This document shows positions 51,601 through 60,600 of a stretch of 64,000 nt of DNA, piece after piece (the first letter of the stretch is position 1; each line of letters opens with the position of its first letter). Source of the DNA: Segniliparus rotundus DSM 44985. Its GTDB lineage: Bacteria; Actinomycetota; Actinomycetes; Mycobacteriales; Mycobacteriaceae. The DNA lies in the NCBI RefSeq assembly GCF_000092825.1, contig NC_014168.1:485946-549945 (forward strand), read 5' to 3'. The position numbers were made by a program.

Positions 51601-54600
51601 TGGTTTCCGCGCCCAGGTGGCGGCGCTTTGCGTCGGCCCGGTGACCGCCGCGCCGCTTGAGGCGCTCGGCGTGCCGACGAGCGCCCCGGCCCGTTCCCGG
51701 CTCGGGGCGCTGGCCCGGCATATCGAGGAGGAGCTGCCGAGACGGGCGAAGGTGTTCCGGGCCCACGGCCACACCATCGCCGTCCTCGCCCGGGCCGTTG
51801 TGGTGGACGGCGAGGTCCGCCACCTCGCGCCGTCCATGCTGACGCTGCTGCGAGCATTGGCCCGCCAGCCCGGACGAGTGGTCACTCGCGAGGCATTGCT
51901 CGCGAGCCTGCCCGGACACAGCGCCGACGCGCACGCGGTGGAGGCCGCGATCGGCAGGCTCCGAACTGGTTTGGGAGATCCGAAGATCGTGCAGACCGTG
52001 GTCAAGCGCGGATACCGGCTCGCCGCTGACTGGGGGGTCGACGACTTCGGAGCCAGCGCCGACAAATACTGAGCCGACACAAACCGGGCCGACCAAGACC
52101 GGTCCGACACAGACCGGGCCGGTCCGCAGGCGCTCAAGCGCTCGCGCGGAACTGGTCCAGCAGCAGCTCGGTCAGCGGAGCGAACGCGCGCTGATCATCC
52201 GCGCCTGGCGTGATCCAGGCGATTTCCTCGATCTCCGCGTGCGCATGGGGCTCCTGCGCGCAGGCCACCCGGTACACCTCCGCGAGCACTGTCGCCGCAG
52301 GCTCATGCGCCGCCGGGGCTTCGAACACGCCGAGCCGCTGCGCGTGCTCGGGGCCGATCTGCACCCCCAGCTCTTCGTCGAGCTCGCGCACCAGCGCGTC
52401 GAGCGGCGCTTCGTCTGGTTCGACCTTCCCGCCCGCCTGCATGAACACGGCGGTCCCCCGCTTGCGCGCGACGAGGAAACGGCCCTGCGCGTCGATGATG
52501 ACCGCGGCGACCACCCGGATGATGTCCATGCCCGCCACCCTAGCCGGTTCTTGTGGCCGCAGGACGATCCGCGCGTCGTCCGCGCCCCGGCCGGGGTAGG
52601 GTGATGCTGTGCCGCCCGACCAAGCCTCCCTCCTGCTTGTCGCGCATGGCACGCGGTGCGCTGAAGGCGTGGCCATGTTCGAGGACTTGCGGGACAAAGT
52701 GGCCCAGCTGTTGCCGGACGCACAGGTGCGGCTCGCCTATGTGGACGTGATCGGCCCCACCCCCGAGGACGCGCTGCGCGAACTGCCCGGACCCGTCGTG
52801 ATCGTTCCGGCCTTCCTCGCCAGCGGCTATCACGTTCGGATCGACCTGCCTGAGCAGGTGCGGCGCAGCGGCCGCTCCGACACAGTGACCGCCCCTGCGC
52901 TTGGCCCGGACGTCGCGCTTGCCGAGGTGATGGCCGAACGGCTCACGCAAGCGGGTTGGGCGGGCGAGGGCCAAGTGGTGCTTGCGGTCGCCGGCAGCAA
53001 CGATCCAGCAGCGCAGGCGGAGAACCAGACAACGCTGCGCCAACTGGAGGCCGTGCTCGGCGCGAGCGTGCTGCTGGGCACGATCGGCCAAGGCTCTCCC
53101 CGGATCGCCCAGGTGGTCCCCAGCCTCCCCGGCCCCGTTTTCATCGCGCAGTATCTGCTCGCCGACGGCCTTTTCTCACGCAAGCTCATCGACCTCGCCC
53201 CGCAGGCGAAAGGCAGAGCCGGGCCACTGGGGACACATCCCAAAGTGGTGCAGCTTGTCGTGCGCCGATACCGGGAGGGCCTCGCTGAGCCGCGCCCCAA
53301 CGTCTGAAGCGCACGCGCGCGCCGGTCGGCTCAACACTGTTCCCGCAAGATCGCTTCGAGCCTTTGGCACAGCCGCCCGACAGTCTCGCGCGCGACGGCG
53401 GTGTCCGGATGGCGGATGCGCAGCCACAGCCCTTGGCTCGTGCGGGAGAACCAGAACTGCGCGTCGTCCGCGACGGTCGTGTTGCTGATATGCGTTGTGC
53501 GCCGCTCGGTGTCGGCGGCGGACGCGGCGAACACTTTGCGATAGTCGATATGGCTCACCATGGACACGTCTCTGCGGACGAGCTCGAACGCCCCGGCCCG
53601 GCCCGAGAGCACCTGCCCCATCGGCACCTGGGCCGCTGGCAGCGCTTCGCGGAAGGCCAGCCGGTTCTGCCGCACGCCGTCGGCGAAATCGGTCCCGCAA
53701 CGGAACACCAGCGGAATGTTGGTGACGAACCAGCCCACTGCCTCCTCCCACTCAGGACGCAGCAGGATGCGCATGGGGGTGAGCGTCGCGATGCGCTCAG
53801 GCCCGCCCAAATCCCGCACGGCCCCGGCGAGCGCGGTCAATTCGCCGGAGTAGAGGCTGCCTTCGTGGCTGTGGCAGAACGTTTCGAATCTCTCTGCGCC
53901 GTTCTCGTCCAGCAGTTCGCGCACGACAGTGCGTTGCGGCTCGATCTCCCCTGGCCGCACCCCGAGGTCCAAGGGGAAACTGGGGAACAGTCCTTTTTGC
54001 GAGGTGAGGAACTGCCGCCAGATGGTCAGACCAGGGTGGTCCTGCGGCAGCGGCGGCTGCCCGGTCTCATACGCGCAGTAGTCGAGAAAGCTGCCGACCT
54101 CGGGCAACGTCGGCGCTGGTTCGCCCGCGACCCGTGCCAAATAGTCCGCGCGCACTTCGCGGGCAATGATCGCCAATGAGAGCGCGTCCACCGCGCTGTG
54201 ATCGAAACCGCAGATCACGGTGCTCGTTTCCGGGCGGTCGACGGCGGCGAAGAGCGCGGCGGGAAATCGGGTCGGATCGCACACCGAGCGAAGCTTTTGC
54301 CGGAGCGTCGCGCTGAGCTCGTCGGCAGAAGCCATCGGAAGCGCCGCGTCCGGGGCGACGAGCGCGACGGCGCTGGCTGGATGGACCCGCCGAATGATGT
54401 TCCCGTCCACCGCCTCGAAAGAACAGCGCAGGCTCTCATGTCTGCGCATCAGCGCGGCGAAGGACTCGGTGAGCGAGTCGGGCCGGATCCTGCCCGGCAC
54501 GTCGAACGTCACCGCCAACCAGCCGTCGCTGCCATTTTTGGCTCCTTCGCGGCCCAGGAGCACCGCGTTGAGGTGAAAGCCCTGGTTCGCCGACGGCGGG

Positions 54601-57600: not shown

Positions 57601-60600
57601 TCTGCGGGTGCGACAGGTCGACGAGCTCGACTTGGGAGCGCAGCACTTCATGGCGGTCCGCCCAGAGGCGCAGGGTGCGGGCGAAGGCCGCGTGGTCCAG
57701 CTCGCCCTCGAACTCCAAGGCGGTGCCGATCCACGATTCCCGCGTCTCGCACTTCGCGAGCGTGTACGCGCGCAGGTGCGCTTCGTGGACGAAGGAGGCG
57801 GGTCGGGGGTCCACCGGCCAGTCGCGCATCACGGTTTCGGCGTGTGCCATCCAATGGGTGACCCGGCCTGGGGTGATCGGGTAGTCGAAGAGTTCGACGA
57901 ACTCCATCGGCCCGCTTCCTCTCTGTCTCGTTTCCGTCCGTTTCCGCGCCAGGGGTGTGGATTATTCTGCCGCTGGCGGCATCGGGGCGCGGGGCGCGAA
58001 AGCAGTGTGCTCTGCGTCTCGATACTCGGAAGAACTATTCCATGGAATCCTACATCACATTCACGCTCGTCGCTCGTGTGCGCGATAGTTGTCAGAGTTC
58101 GATGTTGCAATGGAAACCGTGTTGAGATGGACAGGATGAGCCCGCGCCAGCTATTCGAGGAGCCAGCCCGATTGTTCCAGGATCTGGCTTCGGGCCGCCG
58201 AGGGCCGTTCATGGTCCGAGGCGGGCCCGGATCTGGCAAAACGAGGCTGGTCGTGGATTTGGCGTGTCATTGGGCCCCGCAACCGGGCACGGTCACGGTG
58301 GTGCTCACCTCGAACCGCGCGGCCGCGGACCGGCTCCGGGCCCAGATCCACGGCAGGCTGCTGCGGGCCAGCCCCCAGCTGGCGTTGGCCAAACCGCTGG
58401 TGCGAACCACCCATTCGTACGCCTTCGCGCTGCTCGAAGCGCGCGCGAGGGCCTCGGGGAATCCGCCGCCCCGGCTGATTCCGGCGGCGGAGCAGGACGC
58501 GACATTGCGCGAGCTGGCCATCGATCAGGCCGCTCGCTGGCCCGAGCCGTTGCGCGCGGCGCTCGGCTCGATGGAATTCACCGCCCAGCTGCGTTCAGTT
58601 TTCCAGCGCGCGGCACAGCACGGGCACGGGCCGGAAGGACTGATCGCGCTCGGCACGGCGCGCGCCCGCCCGGAATGGGTCGCGGCGGGGCGCACCTGGC
58701 GGGAATACGAACAGGTGATGACGCTGCGCGGCGCGGTCGGCATGGCCGACCCGGCCGCGAGCCCCGGCGCGCTCGACGCGGCGGAGCTGCTGGGCGCCGC
58801 GCTCGACGCGGTGGCCGAAGACCCGGACCTGCTGTTGCACCCGCTCGGCAAGCCGGGTTCCCGGTTCGTGGTGTTCGTCGACGACGCCCAGCATTTCGAC
58901 CCCCAGGCGGCCCGGTTGAGCAGCCTCGCCGCGCGCCGCGCCGATCTCGCGGTCTGCACCGTGGACCCGGACCAGTCGGTGTTCTGGTTCCAAGGCGCGC
59001 AAACCGGCCCTGGCTTGTGGCGCGAAGCCGAGCAGTTGCGCCTGGGCCCGAGCCAGCGGTTGTCGTCTTCGGTGGCGCAGCTGGTCGCCGCGGTCGCGCC
59101 GCGCTCCGCGCCGCAGGTCGCGACCTGCCGCGAGTCGGCGGGGGAGGCGCAGACGCGGCTGTACCCCACCGTCGCGGCCCAAGCCGAGGGCGTGGTCGAG
59201 GCGTTGTGCCGGGCGCACGCCCGCGATCAGGTCCCGTGGTCGCGCATGGCGGTTCTGGTCCGTTCTGTTCCCGTGTTGGAGCCGTCGCTCGCACGCGCGG
59301 CCGCCCTCGCGGACGTGCCGTTGCGCCTTGCGGCGATGAGCGGCCCGCTCGCGGCGAACACGGCTGTGTCGGCGTTGCTCTCCCTGCTCAAAGCGCTCGC
59401 GCGCAAGGCGTTGGAGCCCGCAACAGCGTTGGAGCTGTTGGTCTCGCCGATCGCCGGGGCCTCTGTTGCCCAAGCGCGCTCCCTGCGCAGGCTTCTGCGC
59501 GCTCAGGAGCCGGACCGCCCGTCGCTCGACCTTCTCGCCGAACTTGTCCTCGGAGCACGAGAACACGATGTGCCCGAGCCAGTGCTGCGCCTGCGTCGGG
59601 TGTGGCGGGCGGCCTGCGAGGCGCTCGGCGCTCCAGCTCCGACGGTCGAGACCGTCCTATGGGCCGCGTGGTCGGCGAGCGGACTGGAGGAGCGTCTGCC
59701 CGAAGGCGATTTCGCGGCGGTGCGCGCGCTGTTCGCCGCCGCGCGAGCGCAGCGCGCCGCCGACGCGGCCGACGCCGCGGCCGAGCTGGCGCGGTTCGCG
59801 GAGCGGGTCGAGCGCGAACGGCTGCCCGTGTCCGCAACGCTGGGCGACGGGGGCGGCTCGGATGCGGTGACCTTGCTCTCCGCGCACGCCGCCGCCGGAC
59901 AGGAATGGGACGTCGTGGTCGTCTGCGGGGTGCAGGAGGGGCTGTGGCCCGGGTTTTCTGAGTCCAGTTCCTTGCTCGGCGTGGACGAGCTCGCTGCCGC
60001 GCTGGCGGGGACTCCGGCAGAAGCCAAGCTGGACGCGCGCAAACAAGTGCTTGCGCAGGAGCGCAGGCTGCTCTATCTCGCTTGCTCGCGCGCTCGGGAG
60101 CAGCTGCTGGTCACAGCAGTGGAAGGCGAAGGCGATTTGGTCCCGTCCCGTTTCTTGGCCCCGTTGGCCCCGTTGGCCCTGCGAACGCAGGAGCACGGCC
60201 CGGCAGAGCGCGCCGCCGCGGCGCCCCCACCGGCTCCGGCGACCCCGTGGAGCTCGGCGGGCGTCGTTGCCGAGCTGCGCGCCCTCGCCTGCGGGGCAGA
60301 CCAGCACAGGGCGCAGCGCGCTGCCGCCGCCCTCGCCGCGTTGGCCCAGGCCGGGGTGATCGGCGCCCATCCCAAGAGCTGGCACGGACTCGCCGAGGTC
60401 TCCACAAGCGAACCGCTCGCCAAGGACGGCTCTCTGACGCTGAGCCCTTCTCGGGTCCAGCAGTTGCTCGATTGCCCGTTGCGCTGGCTCTTCGAGAGGG
60501 CAATGCCTGCTGCTCCGGGCGAGGCCGCTGCCATCGGCACAGCCGTGCACCTGCTGGCCTCGGTGGCGGACCGCTTCCCTGAGGACGAGTTGCAGGCCGC

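What the first reader, a model, noticed from the sequence alone, without database searches (positions are those of the whole stretch)
53331..57907. Three tandem, diverged standalone condensation-domain (PapA-like) acyltransferase paralogs divergent from adnAB
Three co-oriented 455-520-aa proteins share end-to-end similarity and the HxxxDG(Y)S acyltransfer motif (ADHSLLDGYS, EDHSFCDGYS). The most downstream copy has DHSAVDALS, where Gly becomes Ala and the flanking Gly/Tyr are lost, so it may be catalytically altered. There is no PKS, NRPS, FadD or MmpL partner within the window. Mycobacterial PapA proteins normally sit in such lipid loci. A triplicated free-standing set next to a DNA-repair operon therefore suggests a lineage-specific acylated glycolipid or wax-ester-type pathway that has diversified by duplication.
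Basis: partly seen in the sequence, partly recalled or inferred. Interest (0 to 1): 0.7.

Follow-up and report, generated by a model that had tools for sequence, protein, structure and literature searches.

The report
Conserved three-gene PapA-type acyltransferase operon
Three neighbouring genes in Segniliparus rotundus encode three different PapA-type lipid acyltransferases; the same three-gene set recurs in many related actinobacteria, so it is an old, uncharacterised module that probably builds a multiply acylated sugar lipid, and its position beside a DNA-repair operon is incidental.

Summary
The window comes from Segniliparus rotundus DSM 44985. Three minus-strand genes encode free-standing condensation-fold proteins: C 56450-57907, B 54715-56259 and A 53331-54695. 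They are 25-27% identical end to end and lie divergent from adnAB. No PKS, NRPS, FadD or MmpL was found among the window ORFs scanned.

"PapA-like" holds. Mtb PapA2 is by far the best solved relative of all three. All three carry the Pap-family motif HX3DX14Y.

Two parts of the interpretation fail. First, copy A is not degenerate. It keeps His, Asp and Tyr, and Ala after Asp is typical of its orthologue group. Active PapA2 has Pro at that position. A evolves under purifying selection (dN/dS 0.38), and its model matches PapA2 at TM 0.89.

Second, the trio is not a lineage-specific duplication. C, B and A are three ancient orthologue groups. They keep the order C-B-A in Segniliparus, Nocardia, Williamsia, Gordonia and Amycolatopsis, and are rearranged in Rhodococcus. 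S. rotundus has a second complete trio elsewhere. Mycobacterial PapA2/PapA3-like proteins nest inside the B clade. Linkage to adnAB is confined to Segniliparus.

The most likely function, inferred and not shown, is stepwise position-specific acylation of a trehalose-type glycolipid from acyl-CoA. This is a new member of a known kind, of moderate interest.

The parts
56450..57907 (-). Gene C (first in the operon): 485-aa free-standing PapA-type acyltransferase, C-type orthologue group. Motif H172-x3-D176-x14-Y191 (His codon 57394-57392).
   Evidence: PF00668 at E 4e-22. Mtb PapA2 6AEF at E 7e-32 over residues 5-463. 100% identical to the S. rotundus DSM 44985 protein. 39% identical to Rhodococcus position-equivalent Rery_3. 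dN/dS 0.18 against S. rugosus.
56260..56449 (-). 190-bp spacer between C and B.
   Evidence: Sequence read; GAGGA lies about 9 nt before the GTG at 56259. No terminator-like site was found on the minus strand, which is consistent with co-transcription (inferred).
54715..56259 (-). Gene B (middle): 514-aa PapA-type acyltransferase, B-type orthologue group, the clade that contains mycobacterial PapA2/PapA3-like proteins. Motif H206-x3-D210-x14-Y225 (His codon 55644-55642).
   Evidence: PF00668 at E 3.7e-21. PapA2 6AEF at E 1.6e-47 and 165 bits, the strongest of the three. B clade has 91% bootstrap support and includes PapA2. Start inferred from orthologue lengths of 513-515 aa. dN/dS 0.21.
53331..54695 (-). 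Gene A (last): 454-aa PapA-type acyltransferase, A-type orthologue group. Motif H166-x3-D170-x14-Y185 with Ala171 after Asp (His codon 54200-54198). Starts 19 bp after the B stop codon.
   Evidence: PF00668 at E 6.7e-21. PapA2 at E 8.8e-31. AF2 model has pLDDT 92.4 and its Foldseek top hit is PapA2, TM 0.89 and rmsd 2.9 A. Ala after Asp is conserved in the A clade. dN/dS 0.38.
57908..58126 (.). Divergent intergenic region of about 220 bp between gene C and adnA. It presumably holds the operon promoter.
   Evidence: Sequence read. No sigma-70 consensus match was found, so the promoter is inferred and not located.

Best explanation
The three genes form one operon, C then B then A. Each encodes a different, catalytically competent PapA-type acyltransferase with the condensation/CAT fold, in which a His in the HX3D motif acts as general base at the interface of two lobes.

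Shown: the three belong to three ancient orthologue groups. These are inherited, moved and duplicated together as a cassette in Segniliparus, Nocardia, Williamsia, Gordonia and Amycolatopsis, and in rearranged form in Rhodococcus.

Inferred: the enzymes act on one product, each esterifying a different hydroxyl of a sugar head group. Trehalose is the most likely acceptor, because every characterised member of the PapA1-4 clade, within which B nests, acts on a trehalose-based acceptor. The acyl donors would be ordinary acyl-CoAs and not PKS-bound chains. The product would be a polyacylated glycolipid that is then exported to the envelope.

The residue after the catalytic Asp is Gly in C, Gly in B and Ala in A. 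I read this as a difference in acceptor specificity and not as loss of activity.
For: Family assignment:
- Pfam Condensation hits in all three.
- PapA2 6AEF is far above any NRPS C domain for all three: 110-165 bits against 52 bits or less.
- HX3DX14Y is present in all three. The motif is defined as required for Pap activity in PMC2676004.
- The AF2 model of A matches PapA2 at TM 0.89.

Cassette:
- Reciprocal best hits give 1:1:1 orthology with Rhodococcus and with a second S. rotundus trio.
- tblastn typing of 39 loci shows B followed directly by A in 36 of 39. The exceptions are a truncated Rhodococcus contig (L038), a Mycobacterium MAG with a single B-type gene plus MmpL (L042) and Tsukamurella pulmonis L046, which has C-A and no B. 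C lies immediately upstream in five genera.
- The cassette is duplicated as a whole in S. rotundus, Williamsia deligens and Gordonia paraffinivorans.
- All three genes are under purifying selection.

Lipid and export context elsewhere:
- A divergent MFS in Rhodococcus and a DrrA-like ABC ATPase in Williamsia and Gordonia.
- TetR plus MMPL in Amycolatopsis.
- A GDSL lipase plus MFS in Tsukamurella.
- The usual site is inside the accD5-accA3 acyl-CoA carboxylase locus.

Functional precedents:
- PapA3 alone esterifies trehalose twice with palmitoyl-CoA (PMC2676004).
- PapA2 then PapA1 act in sequence in sulfolipid synthesis (PMC6996325).
- The PapA-like TlsA is needed for Rhodococcus succinoyl trehalose lipid, and clustered papA genes are its closest homologues (PMC8396431).
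Against: - No product, substrate or activity is known for any member of the A or C groups.
- No glycolipid data exist for Segniliparus.
- The S. rotundus locus has no exporter, glycosyltransferase or sulfotransferase next to it. Its neighbours are CbiX, NUDIX and adnAB.
- The A and C clades as wholes did not reach 60% bootstrap in a simple NJ tree.
- TlsA is only about 30% similar to the clustered genes, so it is a family-level precedent and not an orthologue.
- Co-inheritance fits a heteromeric complex as well as it fits a stepwise pathway.
Confidence: 0.55

Rival explanations
1. The three proteins form an obligate hetero-oligomeric acyltransferase. One or two subunits are catalytic and the others act as scaffold, substrate-presenting or carrier-docking subunits, so the cassette does not encode three independent steps.
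For: The three genes are strictly co-inherited in fixed order. They have short or overlapping gene junctions, for example 19 bp between B and A here and overlapping stop/start in Nocardia L034. The PapA2 structure paper proposes a direct PapA2-PapA1 interaction.
Against: All three keep the full HX3DX14Y catalytic motif across every genus examined. That would not be expected of a purely structural subunit. In Rhodococcus, C is separated from B-A by two unrelated genes. No interaction data exist.
Confidence: 0.2
2. The enzymes acylate a non-trehalose acceptor. Candidates are a long-chain diol or alcohol (PapA5-like wax or diester formation), another sugar or oligosaccharide, or an amine (N-acylation).
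For: The condensation fold supports ester and amide formation on many acceptors. The A and C groups have no characterised member. The cassette occurs in Amycolatopsis and Streptomyces, which lack mycolates. Tsukamurella loci mix these genes with PapA5-like (PF16911) proteins and a glycosyltransferase.
Against: There is no PF16911 hit, and the NCBIfam PapA5 model scores about 20 bits against a 396-bit cut-off. There is no WS/DGAT hit. PapA5-like Tsukamurella proteins show no BLAST similarity to the three window proteins. B nests with the PapA proteins that act on trehalose-based acceptors.
Confidence: 0.2
3. One reading: recent, lineage-specific tandem duplicates that are diverging, with the last copy losing or changing catalysis.
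For: The genes are arranged in tandem, and A shows the highest rate of change (68% identity to S. rugosus and dN/dS 0.38, against 85% and 0.18 for C).
Against: Paralogues within the locus are 25-27% identical, whereas each is 32-39% identical to a Rhodococcus counterpart and 34-41% to an Amycolatopsis one. The position-specific clades span six genera. A's motif is intact and typical of its clade.
Confidence: 0.03
4. The ORFs are fragments of one frameshifted NRPS or PKS gene, or have a different fold with a chance HxxxD.
For: None found.
Against: Each ORF covers a complete PapA2-length domain (PapA2 residues about 5-458) with its own start and stop. No adenylation, carrier or KS domains are present. 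The same separate genes occur in more than 30 genomes. The confident AF2 model of A superposes on PapA2.
Confidence: 0.01

Closest known systems
Mycobacterium tuberculosis PapA2 / PapA1 (sulfolipid-1) and PapA3 (di-/polyacyltrehalose)
   Same: Free-standing proteins of about 460-510 aa with the condensation fold and the HX3DX14Y motif. PapA2 aligns end to end with all three window proteins (E 1e-31 to 1e-47), and the model of A matches its structure at TM 0.89. B falls in the same clade (91% bootstrap). Several Pap enzymes acting in sequence on one sugar is the known logic of SL-1 synthesis.
   Different: Mycobacterial pap genes sit with pks, fadD and mmpL genes and use PKS-made methyl-branched acyl chains for some steps. 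Here no such partner is nearby. The A and C orthologue groups had no Mycobacterium member among the hits returned. The PapA2 zinc-finger motif is reported as PapA2-specific and was not examined here.
TlsA of Rhodococcus sp. SD-74 (succinoyl trehalose lipid) and the clustered 'papA' genes of Rhodococcus sp. I2R
   Same: PapA-like acyltransferases outside Mycobacterium that are tied to trehalose-ester biosurfactants. The I2R cluster has three contiguous genes of 1461, 1431 and 1404 bp and a fourth about 1.5 kb downstream. That layout matches the C-B-A + rhodanese/SufE + extra-C arrangement seen here in Williamsia and Gordonia.
   Different: TlsA is only about 30% similar to those genes (PMC8396431), so orthology to A, B or C is unknown. 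I could not obtain the TlsA sequence or the original paper. None of the clustered genes has been tested.
PapA5 (phthiocerol dimycocerosyl transferase)
   Same: Same superfamily and catalytic HX3D.
   Different: No PF16911 PapA_C hit. The NCBIfam PapA5 model scores about 20 bits against a 396-bit cut-off. PapA5-like proteins of Tsukamurella show no BLAST similarity to the three window proteins.
NRPS condensation domains
   Same: Same Pfam family (PF00668) and the same V-shaped two-lobe fold.
   Different: The window proteins are free-standing, with no carrier or adenylation domain in the proteins or in the window. NRPS C domains score only 20-52 bits (TM 0.6-0.7), against 110-165 bits (TM 0.89) for PapA2.

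Membership tests
Pap (polyketide-associated protein) acyltransferase family, PapA1-4 branch | Conserved HX3DX14Y motif required for activity (definition quoted in PMC2676004) | tested here: met
   Regex match in C (H172), B (H206) and A (H166), and in all orthologues examined.
Pap (polyketide-associated protein) acyltransferase family, PapA1-4 branch | Full-length homology and fold match to a characterised member (PapA2, PDB 6AEF) | tested here: met
   phmmer E values are 7e-32 (C), 1.6e-47 (B) and 8.8e-31 (A), each covering about residues 5-458 of PapA2. Foldseek on the model of A gives TM 0.89/0.88 and E 5e-37.
Pap (polyketide-associated protein) acyltransferase family, PapA1-4 branch | Phylogenetic placement inside the clade of mycobacterial PapA proteins | tested here: inconclusive
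   B-type: the clade including PapA2/PapA3-like sequences has 91% bootstrap support. The A-type and C-type groups are separate sister groups whose deep branching is unsupported (<60%).
Pap (polyketide-associated protein) acyltransferase family, PapA1-4 branch | Genomic association with pks, fadD and mmpL genes | tested here: not met
   None was found among the window ORFs scanned or next to the cassette in most other genera. The exception is an MMPL 2.3 kb downstream in Amycolatopsis. A Mycobacterium MAG with a single B-type gene does have an adjacent MmpL.
Pap (polyketide-associated protein) acyltransferase family, PapA1-4 branch | Acyl-CoA-dependent O-acylation of a trehalose-based acceptor | not testable with these tools
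   Needs enzyme assays or mutant lipidomics.
PapA5 subfamily | Match to PF16911 (PapA_C) or NCBIfam NF006787 | tested here: not met
   No PF16911 hit at E<=1. NF006787 scores 19-20 bits against a 396-bit cut-off.
NRPS condensation domain (in-line) | Embedded in, or partnered with, adenylation and carrier-protein domains | tested here: not met
   Single-domain proteins with their own start and stop codons. No NRPS domains were found in the window.
WS/DGAT (wax ester synthase / Tgs) | Match to the WS/DGAT Pfam models | tested here: not met
   No such hit at E<=1 in any of the three proteins.

The most novel reading that the evidence does not exclude
The C-B-A cassette is an ancient, self-contained, PKS-independent three-enzyme line for polyacylating trehalose. 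It predates the mycobacterial Pap systems, which would descend from its middle gene. It would be the missing genetic basis of the trehalose tri- and tetra-ester lipids of Rhodococcus, Nocardia, Gordonia and Tsukamurella, and of a still unknown surface glycolipid of the opportunistic pathogen Segniliparus. S. rotundus, with two diverged cassettes, would make two variants.
Probability: 0.35. Interest if true: 0.55.

Novelty: new member of a known kind. Interest (0 to 1): 0.35.

Why it matters
The genetics of trehalose-ester glycolipids outside Mycobacterium is poorly worked out. These lipids include biosurfactants of Rhodococcus and its relatives and possible surface lipids of Segniliparus. The one paper held here that addresses the point (PMC8396431, 2021) says that only TlsA has been tied experimentally to acylation.

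A fixed three-gene cassette gives a concrete and compact target. It can be deleted or expressed as a unit, and it predicts three distinct acylation steps. The finding that mycobacterial PapA2/PapA3-like proteins nest in the middle-gene clade suggests where the Pap virulence-lipid enzymes came from.

For genome annotation, the result shows that the adnAB neighbourhood and the Gly-to-Ala change are not functionally meaningful.

Tried and rejected
- I looked for a functional link to adnAB. Synteny exists only in Segniliparus, so I rejected it.
- I tested whether the window MFS (43362-45245) matches the MFS divergent from the Rhodococcus cassette. It does not: 22% identity over 129 aa.
- I checked whether S. 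rugosus, the rough morphotype, lacks gene A. It is intact. The apparent absence was an artefact of my ORF filter.
- I tried to read Inaba et al. 2013 on TlsA. The paper is not held, so TlsA could not be typed as A, B or C.
- Papers on Segniliparus lipids contain no glycolipid data.
- A first bootstrap tree using Biopython BLOSUM distances timed out. I replaced it with a Kimura-corrected p-distance NJ tree.
- Promoter and terminator scans of 53000-58400 gave nothing usable.
- The word-indexed homologue search for B returned only 13 hits. I recovered the distribution with a pattern scan of GTDB genomes instead.
- Flanking ORFs of the second S. rotundus trio have no Pfam hits.

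
Full report
**Source and anatomy.** The first gene product is 100% identical to a protein of Segniliparus rotundus DSM 44985, so the window comes from that genome, which has about 68% G+C. On the minus strand lie three ORFs:
- C: 56450-57907, 485 aa.
- B: stop at 54715, longest ORF to 56379. I place the start at the GTG at 56259 (514 aa), because orthologues are 513-515 aa and a GAGGA precedes it.
- A: stop at 53331, longest ORF to 54842. I place the start at the ATG at 54695 (454 aa). 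The MLVTTIDLV N-terminus is conserved in S. rugosus.

The C-B spacer is 190 bp and the B-A spacer is 19 bp. No minus-strand terminator-like site was found, so a single operon is likely, though this is inferred. On the other strand, adnA (ATG at 58127 or 58136, to 61204) and adnB (61201 onward) carry UvrD-helicase and PD-(D/E)XK domains. On the other side a CbiX gene converges on A, followed by NUDIX, HemD-regulator, AI-2E, LPG-synthase-TM, FGGY kinase, ADH and MFS genes.

**Check of the observation.** All three proteins hit Pfam Condensation at E about 1e-21. They align with one another end to end at 25-27% identity, with E 1e-29 to 2e-41. The quoted motifs are there. Pfam scans of the other large ORFs of the window found no PKS, NRPS, AMP-binding/FadD or MMPL domain.

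**What the proteins are.** Against all PDB sequences the best relative of each is M. tuberculosis PapA2 (6AEF), aligned over nearly its whole length. The scores are 165 bits for B (E 1.6e-47), 114 bits for C (E 7e-32) and 110 bits for A (E 8.8e-31). NRPS condensation domains reach at most about 52 bits.

An AlphaFold2 model of A, built on 26 homologues, has mean pLDDT 92.4 and pTM 0.92. It superposes on PapA2 with TM 0.89 and rmsd 2.9 A, against TM 0.6-0.7 for NRPS C domains.

[quoted passage not shown] All three proteins have it: C at H172/D176/Y191, B at H206/D210/Y225 and A at H166/D170/Y185. They are not PapA5-like, since there is no PF16911 hit and NF006787 scores about 20 bits against a 396-bit cut-off. 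They are not WS/DGAT-like either.

**Whether copy A is catalytically altered.** It probably is not.
- The His, Asp and Tyr of the motif are intact.
- The residue after Asp is Ala in 9 of the 10 trio-derived A-type sequences I aligned. It is also Ala in the Williamsia, Gordonia, Promicromonospora and Nocardioides C-type proteins and in several mycobacterial PapA3-like proteins. Experimentally active PapA2 has Pro there.
- The PapA2 structure paper lists that position (P171, equivalent to G129 of PapA5) as an acceptor-substrate determinant, next to catalytic H166 and D170 (PMC6996325).
- Between S. rotundus and S. rugosus, dN/dS is 0.18 (C), 0.21 (B) and 0.38 (A). A is the fastest-evolving copy but is clearly under constraint.

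**Whether the triplication is lineage-specific.** It is not.
- Each S. rotundus protein is more similar to one particular Rhodococcus erythropolis protein (C 39%, B 32%, A 36%) than to its own neighbours (25-27%).
- S. rotundus carries a second complete trio in the same order near rpsA/coaE, at 59%, 46% and 48% identity to C, B and A.
- A pattern scan of one genome per GTDB species with a B-type alignment returned 36 loci.
- B is followed directly by A in 36 of the 39 loci. The exceptions are one truncated Rhodococcus contig, a Mycobacterium MAG with a single B-type gene and an MmpL, and Tsukamurella pulmonis L046, which has C-A and no B.
- C lies immediately upstream in Segniliparus rugosus, a Segniliparus MAG, four Nocardia, three Williamsia, Gordonia paraffinivorans and the non-mycolate Amycolatopsis aidingensis.
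- In Rhodococcus the order is B-A-rhodanese-SufE-C-accA3.
- Williamsia deligens and G. paraffinivorans have two tandem cassettes. Streptomyces halobius has a B-A pair beside an integrase.
- An NJ tree (49 sequences, 456 columns, 100 bootstraps, PapA5-like outgroup) groups sequences by position in the cassette. The B clade has 91% support and contains a 100%-supported subclade of PapA2 and mycobacterial PapA3-like proteins. The A and C clades as wholes are below 60% support.

The three genes are therefore ancient orthologue groups that travel together. Within the limits of this tree, the mycobacterial Pap proteins look like an offshoot of the middle gene.

**Context.** The adnAB neighbourhood is conserved only within Segniliparus (adnA 73% and 69% identical in L008 and L009). 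I regard it as incidental.

In Rhodococcus, Gordonia, Williamsia and Tsukamurella these genes sit inside the accD5-accE5-maf...rhodanese-SufE-accA3 locus. That same locus is present in this window at 9998-13714 but holds no Pap-like gene.

Neighbours of the cassette elsewhere include:
- a divergent MFS in Rhodococcus;
- a divergent DrrA-like ABC ATPase in Williamsia and Gordonia;
- TetR plus MMPL in Amycolatopsis;
- a GDSL lipase, an MFS and further condensation-domain genes in Tsukamurella pulmonis;
- secreted lipase or hydrolase genes in Nocardia.

These are lipid-handling and export functions, but none is universal and none adjoins the S. rotundus trio. The window MFS is unrelated to the Rhodococcus one.

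**Mechanism.**
- Shown: three intact Pap-type catalytic centres, and a conserved co-linear cassette under purifying selection.
- Established for relatives: PapA3 esterifies trehalose twice using palmitoyl-CoA and is selective for trehalose. PapA2 and then PapA1 acylate trehalose-2-sulfate in sequence, with the acceptor and acyl-CoA entering a tunnel from opposite ends at the catalytic His. The PapA-like TlsA is reported as required for succinoyl trehalose lipid in Rhodococcus, and clustered papA genes are its nearest homologues in another strain. The gene sizes and spacing reported there match the cassette plus the extra C-type gene.
- Inferred: C, B and A each add one acyl group at a different position of a trehalose-type head group, from acyl-CoA donors, to give a polyacylated envelope glycolipid.

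I give this reading 0.55. The main alternatives are a heteromeric enzyme (0.2) and a non-trehalose acceptor (0.2).

**Limits.**
- No lipid data exist for Segniliparus glycolipids.
- The tree is distance-based, and authentic PapA1, PapA3 and PapA4 sequences were missing.
- The rest of the S. rotundus genome could not be searched.

**Verdict.** The feature is real and correctly recognised as PapA-like. It is neither a recent lineage-specific expansion nor partly degenerate, and it is not functionally tied to adnAB. It is an uncharacterised member of a known enzyme kind. The useful added point is that the unit of inheritance is a three-gene cassette shared across several actinobacterial genera.

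Noticed in passing
window 9998-13714 (-): accA3 (biotin carboxylase), rhodanese and Maf genes. In Rhodococcus, Gordonia, Williamsia and Tsukamurella this locus hosts the PapA-like genes. Here it contains none, and there seems to be no SufE gene between rhodanese and accA3.
   Followed up: partly
L003:2272-6733 (S. rotundus, outside the window): A second complete C-B-A trio in the same genome, 59%, 46% and 48% identical to the window trio. It lies near rpsA/coaE and an alpha/beta hydrolase, and its flanking ORFs have no Pfam hit.
   Followed up: partly
window 40054-42465 (+): A mycolic-acid cyclopropane synthase-type methyltransferase (CMAS, 40054-40989) is followed by an IstB-like IS21 helper gene (41806-42465). 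No full-length IstA transposase lies upstream, so this is possibly an IS remnant.
   Followed up: no
window 6085-9593 (+): An EfeUOB-like iron-uptake set: FTR1 permease, an imelysin/cupredoxin protein and a Dyp-type peroxidase.
   Followed up: no
window 25139-26902 (-) and 29019-30146 (+): Large high-GC3 ORFs (587 aa and 375 aa) with no Pfam hit at E<=1e-4.
   Followed up: no
P0133 (Rhodococcus zopfii, 585 aa): A PapA-like condensation domain that groups with the A-type clade and is fused to GNAT acetyltransferase domains. This hints that acetylation and acylation act on the same substrate in some lineages.
   Followed up: no
L044:4722-11416 (Streptomyces halobius): A B-A gene pair (no C) lies a few kb from a phage-type integrase and an excisionase-like HTH gene. 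This suggests the cassette can move horizontally.
   Followed up: no
L006:1401-8623 (Tsukamurella paurometabola): In the same accD5-accA3 locus, three PapA5-like (PF16911) proteins plus an EryCIII-like glycosyltransferase lie upstream of the C-type gene. This looks like a different glycolipid gene set occupying the same genomic slot.
   Followed up: no
window 28381-28468 (-): A single tRNA-Ser(CGA) gene, the only tRNA in the window.
   Followed up: no
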